The translations under genes and the position numbers were made by a program. Below are positions 331 through 50,770 of a stretch of 54,260 bases of DNA, piece after piece; the first letter of the stretch is position 1; the number at the start of each line of letters is the position of its first letter. The notes beneath the pieces are model-generated. The model ran no database searches. It saw nothing but the letters and a program-made list of their open reading frames with translations, and had not been told where the DNA came from. Location: the IMG/VR virus record IMGVR_UViG_3300036861_000225, positions 1 through 54,260 of that record; one strand, 5' to 3'. Source of the DNA: a virus. Taxonomy: Duplodnaviria; Caudoviricetes.

Positions 331-345
331 TGCTTTTCCTTGGTT

Positions 346-367
346 GCCCCGGGCCGAAGCCCGGGGC
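346..367 (-). other. Perfect 9-bp hairpin with cUUCGg tetraloop (on - strand) between two early genes; no U-tract
   Basis: GCCCCGGGC-TTCG-GCCCGGGGC on - strand. Confidence 0.7.
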
Positions 368-378
368 GGTTGCAGTTG

Positions 379-1389
379 TCAGACAGTGGCGAGCAACTTC
401 TCGAAAGCTGCGGTCTTGAGGTCGTCGCCACCGTTGAACCACGCCGAGTTCAGGCGATGCGAATCGGTCTTCGCGGTGGCGTGGTGGTCAACGTATTCGG
501 TGACCGCATTGAGTAGGCCCCACGCGGTGCCATGCACCCCGGGCAGGCTGTCGCCCTTCGCGGCACCGGAGAACAGGCGCAGGATCTCGGCTTCGCCGCG
601 CGGGGCGCGTTCTTCCTTGGACTCCAGCACCTTGCCCATGAAATCGAACGAGGCAGGCGCCGCGGCTTCGGTGGGGCGCAGCAGTTGGCGCACGAACTGC
701 TCGGCACCGGCGCGGCTGATGCGGATCTGAGTCAGCGTGCGCGCTGCGTCGACCATCGAGGCGAAGGACTCTTGAGCGATGCCCAGAGATTGCTTGATCG
801 CGGCCGGGTTGAACACATTGCGGTGCGAGACCTTCACGGCCTTGCCCTTCTCGGCCATCGCCATCGTGAGCGTGTTGTTGCACACCACGCGCTCCATGAC
901 GAACTTGGCAGTCGTAGCGCTGGAGCCGTCGCAGCTCGTGGCGAGCAGCAGATAGCCGCCCACGAGGTCGCCGGTCACGATCTCGGCGCCTTCGCCGATC
1001 TTGGCGAGGGCCCAAAACTTCTTGCCACCGAACAGCGTGCCGGCCGTGGAGAGCTCGAACCCGGCGCCCTCGGTCAGGTCACGGAAAAACTCCAGCACCT
1101 GCGCGGGCTGCACGGTCTTGTACTTGGCGCTCACGAGGCCCAAGGCTTCCTTCGTGTCGCTGCGGAACAGGACGTGTTGATCGGGCATTTCGATCTGCGT
1201 CGCGCCTTCGCGGTCAGCGAAGTAGCGCACCTTGCTGCGCTGGATCTTCCAATCCATGCCAGCAGCGGCCTGCCACGCTTCGATGGGCGAACCAGCGTTG
1301 AGTTGCTGGCCGAGTCCGTGCCAGGGCTTGTCGCCCGTGTAGGCCATTTCGGCGGTTTGATTGGCGCGGATGGTGAGTTCGTGAGCCAT
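379..1389 (-). CDS. DUF932-family phage/plasmid protein
   Basis: MAHEL...MAYTGDKPWHGLG N-terminus, TAGTLFGGKKFWALA, RVVCNNTL and GTAWGLLNAVTEYVDH motifs. Confidence 0.9.
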   Translation of the reverse strand: MAHELTIRANQTAEMAYTGDKPWHGLGQQLNAGSPIEAWQAAAGMDWKIQRSKVRYFADREGATQIEMPDQHVLFRSDTKEALGLVSAKYKTVQPAQVLEFFRDLTEGAGFELSTAGTLFGGKKFWALAKIGEGAEIVTGDLVGGYLLLATSCDGSSATTAKFVMERVVCNNTLTMAMAEKGKAVKVSHRNVFNPAAIKQSLGIAQESFASMVDAARTLTQIRISRAGAEQFVRQLLRPTEAAAPASFDFMGKVLESKEERAPRGEAEILRLFSGAAKGDSLPGVHGTAWGLLNAVTEYVDHHATAKTDSHRLNSAWFNGGDDLKTAAFEKLLATV

Positions 1390-1950: not shown

Positions 1951-1987
1951 TTGGCGTTCGCTCTCCCAAACTGCTACATTTCCCGCC
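1951..1987 (+). promoter_or_regulatory. Sigma70-type promoter giving a probable leaderless mRNA
   Basis: TTGGCG-18 nt-TACATT, 7 nt, then ATG at 1988; no SD. Confidence 0.6.
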
Positions 1988-2293
1988 ATGTCCACGAACC
2001 TAATCCGACTCGAAAGTGACGACCCGCACACTGCGGGCGTGCTCATTCGCTTCGATTCGGGCGCTGCAAAGACAGTCTCATGGCGCGCGGATCAGGTGAT
2101 CTCGCCCGCGCTCGACGCCGCGAAGGAGTACACCGCAGCAGTCATCGATGCCCTGGTGAAAGAGAACCGCGAGGCCGACGTGCGCAACACGAATTGGGTG
2201 AGCGTGACGGCCGCAATGCACAAGTGCATCCGCGATTTCAACGGCAAGCTGCACGCACTGGAGAACGAGCGTCATGCCGCGACTCTCCAATGA
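1988..2293 (+). CDS. Hypothetical protein (MSTNLIRLES...)
   Basis: In-frame ATG in ORF 1844..2293 right after the promoter; overlaps the TerS start. Confidence 0.7.
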   Translation: MSTNLIRLESDDPHTAGVLIRFDSGAAKTVSWRADQVISPALDAAKEYTAAVIDALVKENREADVRNTNWVSVTAAMHKCIRDFNGKLHALENERHAATLQ

Positions 2294-38425: not shown

Positions 38426-38643
38426 GCCAAGTCCTCCAACACTTCACCATCCCATTCATACACGATCGCGTCAGGGCCATCGCCCATGCGCGCGCTCAAC
38501 GTCCCTTCACTCACGCCCGTCGGCCAGAGCGCGCCGAGAGCCGGAATCCCGTGGTCGCGTAGACACTTGAGAACGAAGATGCCGCGGTGCACGTCCTGGC
38601 CGAGATCCGCGAGCCGCGTCTTGCTGATGGTGACGGTGATCAT
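38422..38643 (-). CDS. Hypothetical protein, 73 aa
   Basis: ATGA overlap. Confidence 0.65.
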   Translation of the reverse strand: MITVTISKTRLADLGQDVHRGIFVLKCLRDHGIPALGALWPTGVSEGTLSARMGDGPDAIVYEWDGEVLEDLA

Positions 38644-39119
38644 TCGGGGACTGTAGCATTTGCTTCGCGCTCGCGCAACTCAAGTTCGAGTGCCGCGAGC
38701 AGGTTCCAGATCATTTGCGCACGGTGAAGGCAACCGGTCTGGGCGTCGACCCGTTCGCCTGTGCCGAACGAAAGCGCGTGTCGGCCGAAAGCATCCATGT
38801 ACCTCTCTTCGCCGTTCGGCACGGATGCCCACCCGTTAGGTGTGTACTTGGCCGCACCGACGGTCGTGACCTTGGCCACCTCGTCGATCGCGCGCGCGAA
38901 CCCGGCAATGCACAACCATACCCGGGTCTTTCCTGCGTCGAGTTTCGCGCCGGGCGTGTGCGCGTCGACTCCGTTAGGGTCGGCTTCGGCGAGCAGCGTG
39001 CGCGCCGGTCGGCAGGCCCGCTCATACCCATCTTTGTTCAGGCTCGGCGACCAGACAACCTCCACGTCGCCCACGACCGGGCACGGTTCGCCATCAGGCC
39101 AAGGAACCCAATCACTCAT
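38640..39119 (-). CDS. dATP/dGTP diphosphohydrolase-family (DUF5664-like) protein
   Basis: GAKLDAGK, GAAKY.PNGW, YMDAFGRH, D..TG.LH.A...WN. Confidence 0.85.
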   Translation of the reverse strand: MSDWVPWPDGEPCPVVGDVEVVWSPSLNKDGYERACRPARTLLAEADPNGVDAHTPGAKLDAGKTRVWLCIAGFARAIDEVAKVTTVGAAKYTPNGWASVPNGEERYMDAFGRHALSFGTGERVDAQTGCLHRAQMIWNLLAALELELREREANATVPE

Positions 39120-48311: not shown

Positions 48312-48760
48312 GCCATCGACTCGTTGGCGTCAGCGGCGAGCTTGTCGAGCACGAGCACGAGCTCGGGGCGATCGGCCGCCTTCACGTCCTGGCCGGTCTT
48401 CACCAGTGTGCCGTACTTCTCGGCGAGCGTGGCGAAGAACGCCTTGATGCCGGTGCGGTTCGCAGCGCTGTTCGGGTTGCTCACGGCCACCATTTCGGCG
48501 ATGCGCTGACCGATCGGAGCGTAGGGCAGCTCAGCGGATTCGGTGGGCGGGGTCTCGGGCGCAGCGGGAGCCGGGGCCGGCACCGGGGCGGCAGAAGGCG
48601 GCGAAGCCGCAGGCTTGTCCGCCTTGGCAGGCTTTGGGGCCTTGGTCTCCGCGGGAGCCGGCGCGGTAGCGGCCGCCGCGGCCGCCGCGGTCTTGTCCCG
48701 GGTCAGGTACGCGATGGCTTCGTCCATGTTGGCGAAGGTGAGCTTGATCTCGACGGTCAT
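48308..48760 (-). CDS. Ala/Pro-linker protein typical upstream of DUF2800
   Basis: AAAGG SD; low-complexity linker plus small C-terminal domain. Confidence 0.75.
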   Translation of the reverse strand: MTVEIKLTFANMDEAIAYLTRDKTAAAAAAATAPAPAETKAPKPAKADKPAASPPSAAPVPAPAPAAPETPPTESAELPYAPIGQRIAEMVAVSNPNSAANRTGIKAFFATLAEKYGTLVKTGQDVKAADRPELVLVLDKLAADANESMA

Positions 48761-48975
48761 GTGTTGCCTTTCTGTTTGGCGGTGAGGAATTGGATGCGGC
48801 TGGTGAGGCTCGCGCGTTCCGAGCGCAGCCCGCCGATGTACCAGCGCAAGCAGCGCGCGTCTTCATGGCGAAGCTCAAGCATCGCGTCGGCGTAGTCGGT
48901 TTCGGTGTCCACGATTTCGTGGTCGACAAGGCGCAGCTTGAAGCGCGCGGCCCAGAGGCGCAGGGAGGTGATCAT
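48757..48975 (-). CDS. Hypothetical helical protein (MITSLRLW...)
   Basis: ATGA overlap with the downstream gene. Confidence 0.55.
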   Translation of the reverse strand: MITSLRLWAARFKLRLVDHEIVDTETDYADAMLELRHEDARCLRWYIGGLRSERASLTSRIQFLTAKQKGNT

Positions 48976-48982
48976 TGCGAAC

Positions 48983-49204
48983 TCAGCGAGCCAGCCGCAG
49001 CAGAGCATTGGCTGTAGCTGTCATTTCCATGTCTGTCCCACCCGATTCGCTGATCTCTTGCAGCGCGTCGGCCAAGCTGCGCAGCGTGTCAACGCGATTT
49101 CGCAGTAAGACGATCTTCGCGTCCGCAGCCGCTTTTGCCTTCACGGAATCGGACGATTGCCGGGCGTGACACGGCAGGGGATCGAGCAGGCTCATATCGG
49201 TCAT
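48983..49204 (-). CDS. Hypothetical protein, first gene of the leftward operon
   Basis: ATG just downstream of the promoter at 49267..49239. Confidence 0.55.
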   Translation of the reverse strand: MTDMSLLDPLPCHARQSSDSVKAKAAADAKIVLLRNRVDTLRSLADALQEISESGGTDMEMTATANALLRLAR

Positions 49205-49238
49205 ACGGTTCCCGGCTTTCGGCGTGTTGTGGGTCGGC

Positions 49239-49267
49239 AGACTAACTGCCGTATCAAATGCTGTCAA
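49239..49267 (-). promoter_or_regulatory. Strong leftward sigma70 promoter of the replication operon
   Basis: TTGACA-17 nt-TAGTCT on - strand. Confidence 0.8.
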
Positions 49268-49271
49268 GCGT

Positions 49272-49362
49272 TTTGGTTGGGCGCGCGGTTCGTGGTGCAC
49301 TAACCGGGAATCGACCACAGCATTAGCGAGGATCCATCACCGGAGCCACGCGCCCAACCAAA
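49272..49362. repeat. Perfect 14-bp inverted repeat enclosing about 63 nt
   Basis: TTTGGTTGGGCGCG (49272..49285) / CGCGCCCAACCAAA (49349..49362). Confidence 0.85.
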
Positions 49363-49368
49363 GACTCG

Positions 49369-49398
49369 AAAAAGAAGCCCGGGACCGAAGCCCCGGGC
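49369..49398 (-). terminator. Intrinsic terminator on - strand
   Basis: GCCCGGGGC-TTCG-GTCCCGGGC followed by TTCTTTTT. Confidence 0.85.
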
Positions 49399-49477
49399 CT
49401 TTGCGCTGGCAACTGCTTACCTGCGGCGTCGGGAACAAGGACAGGAGGAGGAGGAGGAGGGAGGGTTCACCCGACGC
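49369..49477 (-). ncRNA. Predicted ~109-nt sRNA with a (CCU)6 anti-Shine-Dalgarno loop
   Basis: Own promoter (49512..49484); 5' stem GCGUCGGG/CCCGACGC closing a CU-rich loop; middle hairpin; own terminator; no credible ORF. Confidence 0.7.
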
Positions 49478-49479
49478 GC

Positions 49480-49517
49480 TTGCAGTATGCACGGAGCAAG
49501 TGCTACAGTCAACGCCC
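49480..49517 (+). promoter_or_regulatory. Rightward leaderless promoter of cro, overlapping the sRNA promoter
   Basis: TTGCAG-18-TACAGT, 8 nt, ATG 49518; GAGC-AAGT-GCTA at 49494..49505. Confidence 0.65.
49484..49512 (-). promoter_or_regulatory. Leftward promoter of the sRNA
   Basis: TTGACT-17 nt-CATACT; predicted +1 near 49477 coincides with the first base of the stem. Confidence 0.7.
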
Positions 49518-49781
49518 ATGAACATGAAACTAAAGCGATTCATGCACGCCCTCACGGGCGAGCAACAGGAGCGGTTTGCGCGGCTTGCAAATACCTCGGT
49601 GGGCACGATCCGCCACTACGTGACCGGGCGCCGCGTGCCGTCGAGCTCGGCCGCGATCGCGATGGAGAAAGCTGCGGTTCGCATGAACGTGGACGGCGCG
49701 CCGGTTCTCGGGCGCCGCGACTTGTCGCCCGCGTGCAAGGGCTGCGAGTACGCCAAAGCATGCACGGAAAGGCTGGATTGA
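49518..49781 (+). CDS. Cro/YdaS-like HTH regulator with C-terminal CxxCxxxxxC
   Basis: QERFARLANTSVGTIRHYVTGRRVPS...AIAMEKA; ACKGCEYAKAC. Confidence 0.8.
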   Translation: MNMKLKRFMHALTGEQQERFARLANTSVGTIRHYVTGRRVPSSSAAIAMEKAAVRMNVDGAPVLGRRDLSPACKGCEYAKACTERLD

Positions 49782-49785
49782 AGCG

Positions 49786-50163
49786 ATGACAATGTACGAC
49801 TTGGCCCCCATGACCAACCCCCTCCTGAAGCCGTGCCCATTCTGCGGAGATGCAAACCCGCGTCTAGGCAAGATAATAGAAGGCGACATGCTTCTTCGCG
49901 GCTTCATCATCGAATGTAGCGATTGCACCGCCAACATGGACCGCTGCGAAACAGAGGAAGAAGCCGTCGAATACTGGAACTGCCGCGCCGTTGGTGGCAG
50001 TTCTGGCGCTGAAGGAGCACGCATGGCCAACCCCCTCCGAGAAGCCCTGGCCGAGGCACGCGACGCACTCTGCGAGCTTGCCACTGACAGCCGCCCATAC
50101 GTCGGGCTGTTAATTGACAGGATCGACTCTCTTCTCGCTTCTCCGGCGCCCCGCAGCACTTGA
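49786..50163 (+). CDS. Lar-like restriction alleviation zinc-finger protein
   Basis: LKPCPFCG...IECSDC.A...EEAVEYWN.R. Confidence 0.75.
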   Translation: MTMYDLAPMTNPLLKPCPFCGDANPRLGKIIEGDMLLRGFIIECSDCTANMDRCETEEEAVEYWNCRAVGGSSGAEGARMANPLREALAEARDALCELATDSRPYVGLLIDRIDSLLASPAPRST

Positions 50164-50189
50164 TACGCGGGTCCGCTCTGGTGTAACCT
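50160..50189 (+). promoter_or_regulatory. Candidate promoter before a structured leader of the nuclease/primase operon
   Basis: TTGATA-18-TAACCT; downstream inverted repeat CCGCCAACC/GGTTGGCGG. Confidence 0.5.
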
Positions 50190-50311
50190 GACGTTCCCGC
50201 CAACCCCAAGGATACCCCCTTTGATCTAGGCCGCCCCCGTCTTTCGGTTCGGGGCTCGGTTGGCGGCGATGCGCGCCTGTGACACACTGACACTCCTTCT
50301 CTGGAGACTGA

Positions 50312-50770
50312 ATGAGAGCCATCGAAACGCGCTACAAAGGGCGCCTGTTTCGCAGCCGACTGGAAGCCCGCTACGCGGTGCTTTTCGACGAGCTCGCGAT
50401 CGCGTGGGATTACGAGCCGGAAGGCTATGTTTTCGAGGATGGAACCCGGTATTTGCCGGACTTCTGGCTCAAGATCCCCGGCAAGCCAGGGCAGGGCTAT
50501 TGGGTCGAGGTCAAAGCCAGCGATCCCACGCCGGCGGAAGTGCACAAGCTTTCGCTGCTCGTGAGCAAGTCAGGGCATCAGGGCTGGTTCTTCACCGGCT
50601 CGCCGGGTGAAGGAAGCACACACTCACACGACGGCAAAGCCTGCGGGCCGCTGCGCTGGGCTGCGCCTATCGTGGCGTGCGCTACGCGGGATCTCAATGG
50701 CCGCTGGCGACAGGCCGCACACGAAGCGCTCGGCGCGCGGTTCGAGTTCGCAAAGAGGCGGCGTGCATGA
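50312..50770 (+). CDS. PD-(D/E)XK nuclease-family protein
   Basis: FRSRLEAR.A.LFD.L...W.YEPEG, YLPDF, WVEVK. Confidence 0.85.
   Translation: MRAIETRYKGRLFRSRLEARYAVLFDELAIAWDYEPEGYVFEDGTRYLPDFWLKIPGKPGQGYWVEVKASDPTPAEVHKLSLLVSKSGHQGWFFTGSPGEGSTHSHDGKACGPLRWAAPIVACATRDLNGRWRQAAHEALGARFEFAKRRRA

What the first reader, a model, noticed from the sequence alone, without database searches (positions are those of the whole stretch)
49369..49512. Phage-encoded anti-Shine-Dalgarno sRNA: (CCU)6 displayed in a hairpin loop, with its own promoter and terminator
Seen: on the - strand, TTGACT-17-CATACT (49512..49484) puts +1 near 49477. That is the first base of a stem (GCGUCGGG..AAC / GUU-CCCGACGC) closing a 28-nt loop, CCUCCCUCCUCCUCCUCCUCCUGUCCUU. 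A small hairpin and a UUCG terminator with a U-tract follow, ending at 49369. The unit has no credible ORF. Established: CCUCCU is the 16S rRNA anti-SD. Bacterial sRNAs with anti-SD loops exist (alphaproteobacterial cuckoo/CcsR RNAs, betaproteobacterial toxic sRNAs). Inference: the phage makes a multi-register SD-occluding RNA that could broadly damp SD-dependent translation, either of host mRNAs (takeover) or of its own AGGAG-led genes (RNA repressor). I do not know of such an RNA described in a phage switch region.
Basis: partly seen in the sequence, partly recalled or inferred. Interest (0 to 1): 0.92.

Follow-up and report, generated by a model that had tools for sequence, protein, structure and literature searches.

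The report
Conserved phage small RNA, pyrimidine loop
An uncultured soil phage carries, where its temperate relatives keep the repressor gene, a short conserved non-coding RNA gene whose large open loop mirrors ribosome-binding sites; it probably blocks translation starts, but no transcript or target has been seen.

Summary
On the - strand, 49512..49369 reads as a sigma-70-like promoter, an 8-bp stem starting at the predicted +1, a 36-nt open loop holding (CCU)6, a small hairpin, and the strongest terminator-like hairpin in the 54-kb genome.

It behaves as an RNA gene:
- Only the - strand folds better than shuffles.
- One related phage genome keeps the unit. Outside the loop 3 of 71 aligned bases differ, against 41 of 264 in the neighbouring cro-like gene, and all 27 predicted pairs are kept.
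- Contigs from two further metagenome runs also cover it.

(CCU)6 itself is not conserved. The relative shares only a CCCUCCCUCCU core in a shorter pyrimidine loop, so the repeat looks like a slippage expansion.

The unit lies where Bordetella phage BPP-1 has cI. No integrase or S24 repressor was found.

No Rfam family matches, so it is not a cuckoo RNA or an RF02278 toxic sRNA. Function is inferred: pairing with purine-rich ribosome-binding sites is my best reading (about 0.45). No long complementary site exists in the phage, the host is unknown, and no RNA data exist. Global damping of translation is unsupported.

This scan has 107 earlier unchecked notes of analogous anti-SD RNAs in other phages. 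Staphylococcal SprX is a published phage-encoded analogue.

The parts
49484..49512 (-). Promoter of the small RNA: -35 TTGACT (49512..49507), 17-nt spacer, -10 CATACT (49489..49484)
   Evidence: 9 of 12 matches. Both hexamers are identical in L002 while 4 of the 17 spacer bases differ.
49369..49477 (-). Predicted small RNA, about 109 nt, from +1 (G49477) to the end of the U-tract
   Evidence: Fold (z = -3.10); the + strand gives z = +0.28. Covariance model R1 matches only this site and the relative's.
49426..49477 (-). Stem-loop 1: 8-bp stem (49477..49470 with 49433..49426) closing a 36-nt open, CU-rich loop (49469..49434)
   Evidence: The pair U49474-A49429 is C-G in L002 and in a contig of run X2, where G49477-C49426 is also G-U.
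49443..49460 (-). (CCU)6 microsatellite inside the loop; part of a 23-nt all-pyrimidine run
   Evidence: Not conserved in length.
49404..49425 (-). Hairpin 2 (8 pairs, 4-nt loop), 22 of 22 bases identical in the relative
49369..49400 (-). Intrinsic terminator: 11-bp stem, UUCG loop (49400..49375), then CUUUUU
   Evidence: the strongest of 39 terminator-like sites in the genome. The two one-sided changes in L002 both give G-U pairs.
49480..49509 (+). Putative promoter of the cro-like gene, back to back with and overlapping the sRNA promoter: TTGCAG (49480..49485), 18 nt, TG-n-TACAGT (49501..49509); the ATG lies 8 nt after the -10
   Evidence: Read and below the scan's threshold (7 of 12), so this is inference. 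The GACTGTAGCA element recurs upstream of distant cro homologues.
49485..49506 (.). Imperfect dyad between the hexamers (GCAC-N7-GTGC core); candidate operator shared by both promoters
   Evidence: Read. In L002 both halves change symmetrically to GCAT-N7-ATGC. Inference; no binding data.
49518..49781 (+). cro-like helix-turn-helix gene (87 aa), apparently leaderless
   Evidence: HTH_3 scores 22.2 bits, just under Pfam's cut-off of 23.
49239..49267 (-). Separate promoter of the leftward early operon: TTGACA-17-TAGTCT
   Evidence: Read (below the scan's threshold). This block is 97.6% identical in L002. In a run-X4 contig it directly follows the sRNA terminator, because 49275..49366 are missing there.

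Best explanation
The unit is a real, independently transcribed small non-coding RNA gene of about 100-110 nt in an uncultured, BPP-1-like phage of a soil proteobacterium.

Host sigma-70 RNA polymerase starts at about G49477. The promoter lies back to back with, and overlaps, the promoter of the cro-like gene. Transcription stops at the strong intrinsic terminator at 49400..49369.

The RNA holds out a long, unpaired, almost purely pyrimidine loop on a GC-rich 8-bp stem. The loop has the core CCCUCCCUCCU and is lengthened here by CCU slippage to (CCU)6. It most likely pairs with purine-rich Shine-Dalgarno regions (GGAGG, AGGAGG) of particular host or phage mRNAs and keeps the 30S subunit off them, as bacterial CU-loop sRNAs do.

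The candidate Cro operator sits between the hexamers of both promoters. The RNA would therefore be an immediate-early product that Cro later shuts off.

Shown: the anatomy, the strand-specific folding, and conservation with kept pairing. Inferred: transcription, the pairing mechanism, the targets and the timing.
For: 1. Promoter, +1 at the stem, and terminator lie in the right order on one strand. The terminator is the strongest of 39 in the genome.
2. Only the - strand folds better than shuffles: z = -3.10 in the window and -3.44 in L002, against +0.28 for the + strand.
3. In the one related genome (the contig of L002; cro 93% identical in protein), the RNA outside the loop differs at 3 of 71 aligned bases. 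The comparisons are 41 of 264 in cro (Fisher p = 0.0098), 29 of 88 at cro third codon positions (p = 2.9e-6), and about 148 of 839 in the left flank (p = 0.0023).
4. All 54 of 54 pair cells still pair. One pair changed on both sides (U-A to C-G) and two changed to G-U.
5. Contigs of two further metagenome runs cover 49364/49367..49513. X4 has 0 other letters, is a net 9 nt shorter, and has the adjacent 92-nt spacer deleted exactly at the terminator's end. X2 shows the same U-A to C-G change plus a G-C to G-U change.
6. The loop stays pyrimidine-rich and open. The all-pyrimidine run is 23 nt here and 24 nt in L002, with a shared 11-nt core containing CCUCC.
7. There is no conserved ORF.
8. The mechanism has precedent. 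[quoted passage not shown] Burkholderia RF02278 sRNAs have CU-rich unpaired regions (PMC5688073). Phage-encoded SprX blocks the spoVG RBS with its C-rich loop (PMC4005690). Passages were read in each.
Against: - No transcript has been observed.
- Covariation rests on 2 full sequences. The shuffle control is uninformative (252 of 500 shuffles reach the observed values).
- The promoter match is no rarer genome-wide than chance (6 found, 6.0 expected). Its hexamers are also constrained by the overlapping cro promoter.
- The most invariant part is hairpin 2 and the terminator, not the loop. The loop varies in length by 10 nt or more. This fits a loosely constrained loop as well as it fits a seed.
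- No site in the phage is complementary over 12 nt or more. The single 11-mer lies in a coding region.
- The host is unknown, so no target can be named.
- Most phage genes carry short SDs themselves, so a general anti-SD RNA would also hit the phage.
- The unit is confined to a narrow lineage. It is absent upstream of the 16 more distant cro homologues examined, absent in 3 loci with a 60-66% identical exonuclease, and absent from 185,579 species genomes by a gapped pattern.
Confidence: 0.45

Rival explanations
1. Promoter-competition and insulator module. What matters is the act of transcription. A strong leftward promoter overlapping the cro promoter competes with it, taking the place of the cI promoter of temperate relatives, and the strong terminator keeps that transcription out of the early operon. 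The RNA is then a by-product and its loop is free to drift.
For: The two promoters overlap back to back, with predicted start sites about 41 bp apart and a shared dyad. The loop is length-variable. The terminator is the strongest in the genome. BPP-1 has cI in this position.
Against: Hairpin 2 (22 of 22 bases) and stem 1 are conserved well beyond the coding neighbours, and pairing is kept through changes. A by-product would not need that. The loop stays pyrimidine-only over 23-24 nt instead of drifting in composition.
Confidence: 0.17
2. Cis-acting leader. The two hairpins act on the transcribing polymerase, or on the terminator, so that a regulated share of transcripts reads through into the leftward replication operon. 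This would be processive antitermination of the HK022 put type (recalled from memory) or an attenuator.
For: Two conserved hairpins lie directly at +1 and are followed at once by a terminator. The early operon lies downstream on the same strand. In the run-X4 contig the terminator abuts the operon's promoter region.
Against: The operon has its own conserved promoter downstream (97.6% identical block). The 92-nt spacer between them is non-homologous in L002 and deleted in X4. The terminator has an 11-bp GC-rich stem and a U-tract with no alternative pairing in the MFE or centroid.
Confidence: 0.1
3. Protein decoy. The long single-stranded pyrimidine tract titrates a host protein that binds such RNA. 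One candidate is ribosomal protein S1, whose preference for pyrimidine-rich RNA and whose dispensability for leaderless mRNAs are recalled from memory. The tract would not pair with mRNAs.
For: The tract is 23-24 nt of pure pyrimidine, its length varies while its composition is kept, and no specific complementary target was found in the phage. Three promoter-proximal phage genes look leaderless.
Against: There is no direct evidence. The conserved core contains the exact anti-SD pentamer twice, which the pairing model explains more simply.
Confidence: 0.07
4. The functional strand is +. In this reading a GGA/AGG-rich RNA upstream of cro (a CsrA/RsmA-type sponge or a leader), a polypurine-polypyrimidine DNA element, or an N-terminal extension of Cro read through (AGG)6 is what matters.
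For: The cro frame is open back to 49224 and would read the repeat as arginines. GGA motifs are CsrA sites (recalled from memory).
Against: The + strand RNA folds no better than shuffles (z = +0.28; 119 of 200 shuffles fold as well). No promoter-like site points rightward upstream of it. The U-tract is on the - strand. Cro homologues are 87-92 aa and begin at the same MN.KLKRFMH. The 10-nt and 2-nt indels against L002 break the upstream frame. Compensatory changes point to RNA pairing.
Confidence: 0.03

Closest known systems
Cuckoo / CcsR (alpha-r14) sRNAs of Alphaproteobacteria (PMC4615179, passages read)
   Same: Hairpins with GC-rich stems display an unpaired CU-rich loop that in part equals the anti-SD. 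Stems evolve by compensatory change while the loop motif is kept. The presumed action is occlusion of ribosome-binding sites.
   Different: Cuckoo RNAs have 2-4 such hairpins, loops of 9-27 nt, the motif CCUCCUCCC, chromosomal or plasmid loci and alphaproteobacterial hosts. This RNA has one CU loop of 36 nt (26 in the relative), lacks that exact motif, lies in a phage and has no Rfam hit.
Betaproteobacteria toxic small RNA (RF02278) and Burkholderia anti-hemB (RF02837)
   Same: Short RNAs with CU-rich unpaired stretches and a GC-rich terminator (PMC5688073, passages). They give the only same-strand Rfam resemblance found.
   Different: Scores are far below threshold. In L002, RF02278 scores 12.1 bits against 50 and RF02837 scores 14.5 against 49.5. 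Nothing is listed for the window. The aligned parts are only the CU stretch and the terminator.
SprX (RsaOR) of Staphylococcus aureus converting phages (PMC4005690, abstract and passages)
   Same: A phage-encoded trans-acting sRNA whose C/CU-rich loop pairs with a ribosome-binding site (spoVG) and blocks initiation.
   Different: The host is Gram-positive and the phages are temperate. There is no sequence relation. SprX is not at the cro-divergent position, it has a specific host target proven by experiment, and it has no trinucleotide repeat.
cI-cro divergent switch of Bordetella phage BPP-1 (NC_005357)
   Same: Same module order: primase and cro one way, then the exonuclease, Gp2.5-like SSB and DNA polymerase the other way. 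The polymerase is 55% and the exonuclease 39% identical.
   Different: BPP-1 has an S24-type cI as first gene of the divergent operon. Here that slot holds the terminated small RNA plus a separate promoter. No S24 repressor or tyrosine integrase was found.
Phage regulatory RNAs of immunity regions: lambda OOP, P22 sar, P1/P7 c4 (PMC12197685, passages); P4 CI RNA (recalled from memory)
   Same: Short phage RNAs in or near the immunity region. c4 and sar block a ribosome-binding site by pairing from loops.
   Different: Those RNAs are antisense or complementary to a defined phage mRNA. Here no site of 12 nt or more is complementary anywhere in the phage, and there is no Rfam match.

Membership tests
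Cuckoo / CcsR RNA family | Two or more consecutive hairpin modules, each displaying the motif (PMC4615179, skeleton and cuckoo TDM passages) | tested here: not met
   Only stem-loop 1 carries a CU loop. Hairpin 2 has a 4-nt AGCA loop and the third hairpin is the terminator.
Cuckoo / CcsR RNA family | Loop motif CCUCCUCCC | tested here: not met
   The window loop holds CCCUCCCUCC and CCUCCUCCU but not CCUCCUCCC. L002 holds CCCUCCCUCCU. The paper's degenerate motif variants are in a figure I could not see.
Cuckoo / CcsR RNA family | Hairpin of 24-50 nt with a loop of 9-27 nt and a helix of at least 6 bp | tested here: not met
   In the window the hairpin is 52 nt and the loop 36 nt, with an 8-bp helix. 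The L002 version (42 nt, 26 nt between the 8-bp arms) would fit.
Cuckoo / CcsR RNA family | Match to a curated covariance model | tested here: not met
   No such family among matches up to E = 10 around the unit, and none at gathering score in the whole window.
Betaproteobacteria toxic small RNA (RF02278) | Covariance-model score at or above gathering (50 bits) | tested here: not met
   Not listed for the window at E up to 10. In L002 it scores 12.1 bits, E 3.3-7.1.
Betaproteobacteria toxic small RNA (RF02278) | Growth inhibition when expressed in E. coli (origin of the name, PMC5688073 passage) | not testable with these tools
   Needs an expression experiment.
Antisense immunity RNAs of phages (c4 / sar / OOP type) | Extended complementarity to a defined mRNA of the same phage | tested here: not met
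   There are 0 complementary 12-mers and one 11-mer (40933, +, inside a coding region) outside the locus itself. The duplex scan shows no outstanding site except the RNA's own antisense.
Independently transcribed bacterial-type sRNA gene (generic kind) | Own promoter, intrinsic terminator, no conserved ORF, conserved structure | tested here: met
   Transcription itself is not shown.
RBS-occluding CU-loop sRNAs (functional kind, includes SprX) | Loop pairs with a target Shine-Dalgarno region and blocks 30S binding | not testable with these tools
   The host is unknown and no RNA data exist. Only complementarity to generic GGAGG/AGGAGG can be stated.

The most novel reading that the evidence does not exclude
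A phage that has lost, or never had, a protein repressor uses the repressor's promoter slot for an immediate-early RNA. Its expandable pyrimidine loop suppresses Shine-Dalgarno-dependent initiation in general, either by masking SDs or by titrating protein S1. The phage's own promoter-proximal regulators, the cro-like gene and at least two others, would escape because they are translated from leaderless mRNAs. This would be a translation-level takeover switch. The number of CCU repeats would tune its strength.
Probability: 0.1. Interest if true: 0.85.

Novelty: new variant of a known kind. Interest (0 to 1): 0.5.

Why it matters
Phage-encoded small RNAs are few and come mostly from enterobacterial and staphylococcal prophages. 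This one would add a conserved RNA gene with a clear promoter-to-terminator anatomy from an uncultured soil phage. It sits at the regulatory heart of the genome, where relatives encode the lysogeny repressor.

If its pyrimidine loop does occlude ribosome-binding sites, phages would be shown to use the same CU-loop logic as bacterial cuckoo, RF02278 and SprX RNAs at the earliest stage of infection. The variable CCU repeat would be a natural dial for loop length.

This scan has noted many analogous candidates in unrelated phages. One well-chosen experimental case could therefore speak for a wider phenomenon. This unit is small (about 150 bp including its own promoter) and self-contained, which makes it easy to synthesise and test.

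Tried and rejected
More relatives
- blastn of 49100..49800 against 50,697 phage records gave no match.
- A 22-mer of hairpin 2 and a 19-mer of the leftward promoter block found only the contig of L002 in IMG/VR.
- The primase found no relative.
- The cro alignment found 10 further viral loci at 33-38% identity and 6 further metagenome loci at 31-47%. None has the unit, and several have a cI-like gene there instead.
- The cro alignment found nothing in genome contigs. A gapped pattern there gave 0 matches.
- The exonuclease found 3 more viral loci at 60-66% identity, with no model hit. L026 and L027 have cro and the early operon directly divergent.
- A looser gapped pattern gave 3 new IMG/VR hits (L028-L030). 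All lie in coding sequence, and the model scores 13.3 bits or less there. I rejected them as chance.
- Model R1 found nothing else. The weak hit at window 338..434 (19.3 bits) is a gene-end UUCG hairpin of similar make. The hit in L011 (18.1 bits) was not pursued.

Expression
- No RNA holder was listed among the 5 runs. This says nothing either way.

Targets
- The duplex-energy scan and the k-mer scan gave no specific phage target.
- An apparent 7-nt match between the 3' side of stem 1 and the leader of the first leftward gene is not kept in L002. I dropped it.

Host
- There are no tRNAs.
- Kin cannot be drawn for a virus record.
- Terminase, polymerase and exonuclease point only to proteobacterial podovirus-like phages, at 39-55% identity.

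Covariation statistics
- With two sequences the shuffle control cannot discriminate.

Literature
- Five searches and the 2025 review PMC12197685 (passages read) turned up no phage RNA described as a general anti-SD RNA or as sitting in the cI slot.
- These searches cover open-access text only. Supplements were closed.
Full report
WHAT THE WINDOW IS. The window is a whole IMG/VR virus record of 54,260 bp with direct terminal repeats, estimated complete. GC content is about 0.60-0.70 throughout. It has no tRNA genes and no Rfam family at gathering score. Its replication genes resemble those of Bordetella phage BPP-1 and Burkholderia phage BcepC6B: the DNA polymerase is 52-55% identical and the DUF2800 exonuclease 39%. 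The terminase is 46% identical to that of a Pseudomonas phage. The host is therefore probably a proteobacterium, but it is not known.

THE OBSERVATION.
- The consensus scan finds TTGACT-17-CATACT at 49512..49484 as the only promoter-like site in 48500..50500. The seventh base after the -10 is G49477.
- RNAfold of 49477..49369 gives an 8-bp stem (GCGUCGGG with CCCGACGC) around a fully open 36-nt loop, an 8-pair hairpin at 49425..49404, and an 11-pair UUCG-loop hairpin at 49400..49375 followed by CUUUUU.
- MFE is -44.91 kcal/mol, z = -3.10, and 1 of 200 shuffles folds as well.
- The repeat is 6.0 perfect copies of a 3-nt unit at 49443..49460. It is unique in the genome.

How far this exceeds chance must be stated carefully. 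Promoter-like sites occur at the chance rate over the genome: 6 found against 2.5 + 2.1 + 1.4 expected. Terminator-like sites do too: 39 found against about 41 expected. The terminator here, however, is the strongest of the 39 (11 pairs, 8 G-C; the next has 9 pairs, 7 G-C).

IT BEHAVES AS AN RNA GENE ON THE - STRAND. The + strand of the same stretch folds no better than shuffles: z = +0.28, with 119 of 200 shuffles folding as well.

One related genome is available. It is the 55,979-bp contig behind L002, L003, L014, L022 and L024, and its cro-like protein is 93% identical. It carries the same unit:
- The promoter hexamers are identical, while 4 of the 17 spacer bases differ.
- Stem 1 has U-A replaced by C-G.
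- Hairpin 2 is identical at 22 of 22 bases.
- The terminator has one C-to-U change that keeps a G-U pair.
- Its fold has the same architecture (z = -3.44).

On the two-sequence alignment, 54 of 54 pair cells form standard pairs. One pair changed on both sides and two on one side. With two sequences the shuffle control cannot discriminate (252 of 500), so covariation alone is thin.

The stronger argument is relative conservation. Outside the loop, 3 of 71 aligned bases differ. The comparisons are 41 of 264 in cro (Fisher p = 0.0098), 29 of 88 at cro third codon positions (p = 2.9e-6), and about 148 of 839 in the coding flank to the left (p = 0.0023).

Two further metagenome runs hold contigs over the unit:
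- In X4, a 430-nt contig covers 49367..49513 with no other letters. It is a net 9 nt shorter. One of those 9 is a single-base deletion at 49400. The tool flagged the repeat 49432..49468 as the place where reads seem cut, but it did not print the letters.
- The same X4 contig then joins 49367 to 49274, deleting the 92-nt spacer exactly at the end of the terminator.
- In X2, a 186-nt contig covers 49364..49513 with 10 other letters and 15 gap columns. The listed changes include 49474 A>G with 49429 T>C, which is the same U-A to C-G change, and 49426 G>A, which turns G-C into G-U.

In L002 that 92-nt spacer is replaced by unrelated sequence. The unit is thus a module with kept borders between variable DNA.

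No ORF is conserved. The only frame starting within the RNA is shifted by the 10-nt loop indel. The long + strand frame that runs into cro is broken in the same way, and cro homologues all begin at the same residues.

THE LOOP. (CCU)6 is not the conserved feature.
- L002 has a 26-nt stretch between the 8-bp arms.
- It shares with the window only the core CCCUCCCUCCU, followed by UUCCUUCC.
- Both versions keep an all-pyrimidine run: 23 nt here and 24 nt there. Such runs containing CCTCC occur nowhere else in the loci then held, L001-L020.
- The repeat is best read as a slippage expansion of a CU-rich loop.
- What selection keeps is pyrimidine composition, openness and the CCUCC-containing core.

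CONTEXT. To the right lie a cro-like HTH gene (49518..49781; HTH_3 22.2 bits against a cut-off of 23), a Lar-like gene, and a primase-helicase. To the left, behind a second promoter (TTGACA-17-TAGTCT, 49267..49239), lie small genes, DUF1508, the exonuclease, an Acb2-like gene, a Gp2.5-like SSB and the DNA polymerase.

BPP-1 has the same order, with an S24-type cI as the first gene of the operon divergent from cro. Here the small RNA fills that slot. Neither this genome nor the relative has a tyrosine integrase, and this genome has no S24 domain. Its only HTH_3 match is cro. Serine recombinases and other lysogeny functions were not searched, so the lifestyle stays open.

The sRNA promoter and a putative cro promoter (TTGCAG-18-TG-n-TACAGT, read from the sequence and below the scan's threshold) overlap back to back. 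Between the hexamers lies a dyad, GCAC-N7-GTGC. In L002 it reads GCAT-N7-ATGC, a symmetric change that suggests a shared operator (inference).

The cro ATG lies 8 nt after the -10 with no SD. Two more promoter-like elements of the same type lie 6 and 7 nt before an ATG (38658, - strand; 1972, + strand). Leaderless translation of promoter-proximal genes is plausible but not shown.

MECHANISM. My best reading (0.45) has the following steps:
- The host polymerase makes this RNA immediately after infection.
- Its loop pairs with purine-rich SD regions of particular mRNAs and blocks initiation.
- The cro-like protein later closes both promoters.

The kind is documented. [quoted passage not shown] Burkholderia RF02278 RNAs carry CU-rich unpaired stretches (PMC5688073, passages). 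[quoted passage not shown]

Evidence against, or missing:
- There is no transcript.
- There is no host.
- No complementary site of 12 nt or more exists in the phage, and the single 11-mer lies inside a gene.
- Many phage genes carry GGAG/AGGAG themselves (a crude gene list of 57 ORFs).
- The loop is the least conserved part of the RNA.

Rivals are a promoter-competition and insulator module whose RNA is a by-product (0.17), a cis-acting leader or antiterminator for the leftward operon (0.10), a pyrimidine-tract protein decoy (0.07), and + strand or DNA-level readings (0.03). The remainder is unassigned.

COMPARISON WITH THE KNOWN. No Rfam family matches.
- Around the unit the best hit is ylbH on the wrong strand, at 20.6 bits against 50.
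- For L002 the same-strand hits are anti-hemB (14.5 bits against 49.5) and RF02278 (12.1 bits against 50). They align only the CU stretch and the terminator.
- The RNA fails the published cuckoo definition on number of motif hairpins, exact motif and loop size.
- It is therefore a new, narrow family that works, if at all, like a known kind.

Five literature searches and a 2025 review of phage sRNAs (PMC12197685, passages) showed no RNA of this sort at a cI position. They cover open-access text only.

EARLIER NOTES OF THIS SCAN. The same stretch was noted as 'sRNA in the place of cI' (e1-6337306). The BPP-1 comparison supports that wording. A word search found 107 unchecked notes on anti-SD-like RNAs in other phages. 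They are analogues, not relatives: a sequence look-up found only this genome.

VERDICT. The unit is a well-supported, uncatalogued phage small-RNA gene. Its anti-SD function is a reasonable but untested inference, and the striking (CCU)6 is an expansion, not the essence.

Noticed in passing
window 49480-49512: The sRNA promoter and a putative cro promoter overlap back to back. Between the hexamers lies a dyad (GCAC-N7-GTGC) that reads GCAT-N7-ATGC in L002. This symmetric double change suggests one operator controlling both promoters.
   Followed up: partly
window 49501-49520 (+), 38643-38658 (-), 1972-1991 (+): Extended -10-like elements (TGCTACAGT / TGCTACATT) lie 6-8 nt before an ATG with no Shine-Dalgarno sequence. 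This suggests leaderless mRNAs for the cro-like gene and two other promoter-proximal genes.
   Followed up: partly
window 49275-49366; L002 about 2766-2860: The 92-nt spacer between the sRNA terminator and the leftward promoter is unrelated in L002. In a contig of run X4 it is deleted and replaced by 2 letters. The blocks on both sides are 97% conserved.
   Followed up: partly
window 49196-49280: The leftward promoter block is 97.6% identical in L002. It contains a small hairpin, GGCAG-TTAGT-CTGCC, spanning the -10, which may be a further regulatory site.
   Followed up: no
whole window; locus L023 (BPP-1): The replication and control region is syntenic with temperate Bordetella phage BPP-1. 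No S24 repressor was found in the window, and no tyrosine integrase was found in the window or in the related contig. The lifestyle is unresolved.
   Followed up: partly
L026 / L027 4090-4190: In phages with a 66% identical exonuclease, the cro-like gene and the early operon are directly divergent, with neither cI nor the small RNA. The operon's short leader contains UUUUCCUCC just before its ribosome-binding site.
   Followed up: no
window 346-367 (-): A gene-end hairpin of the same make as the sRNA terminator (GC-rich stem, UUCG loop) but without a U-tract. It caused the weak covariance-model hit at 338-434.
   Followed up: yes
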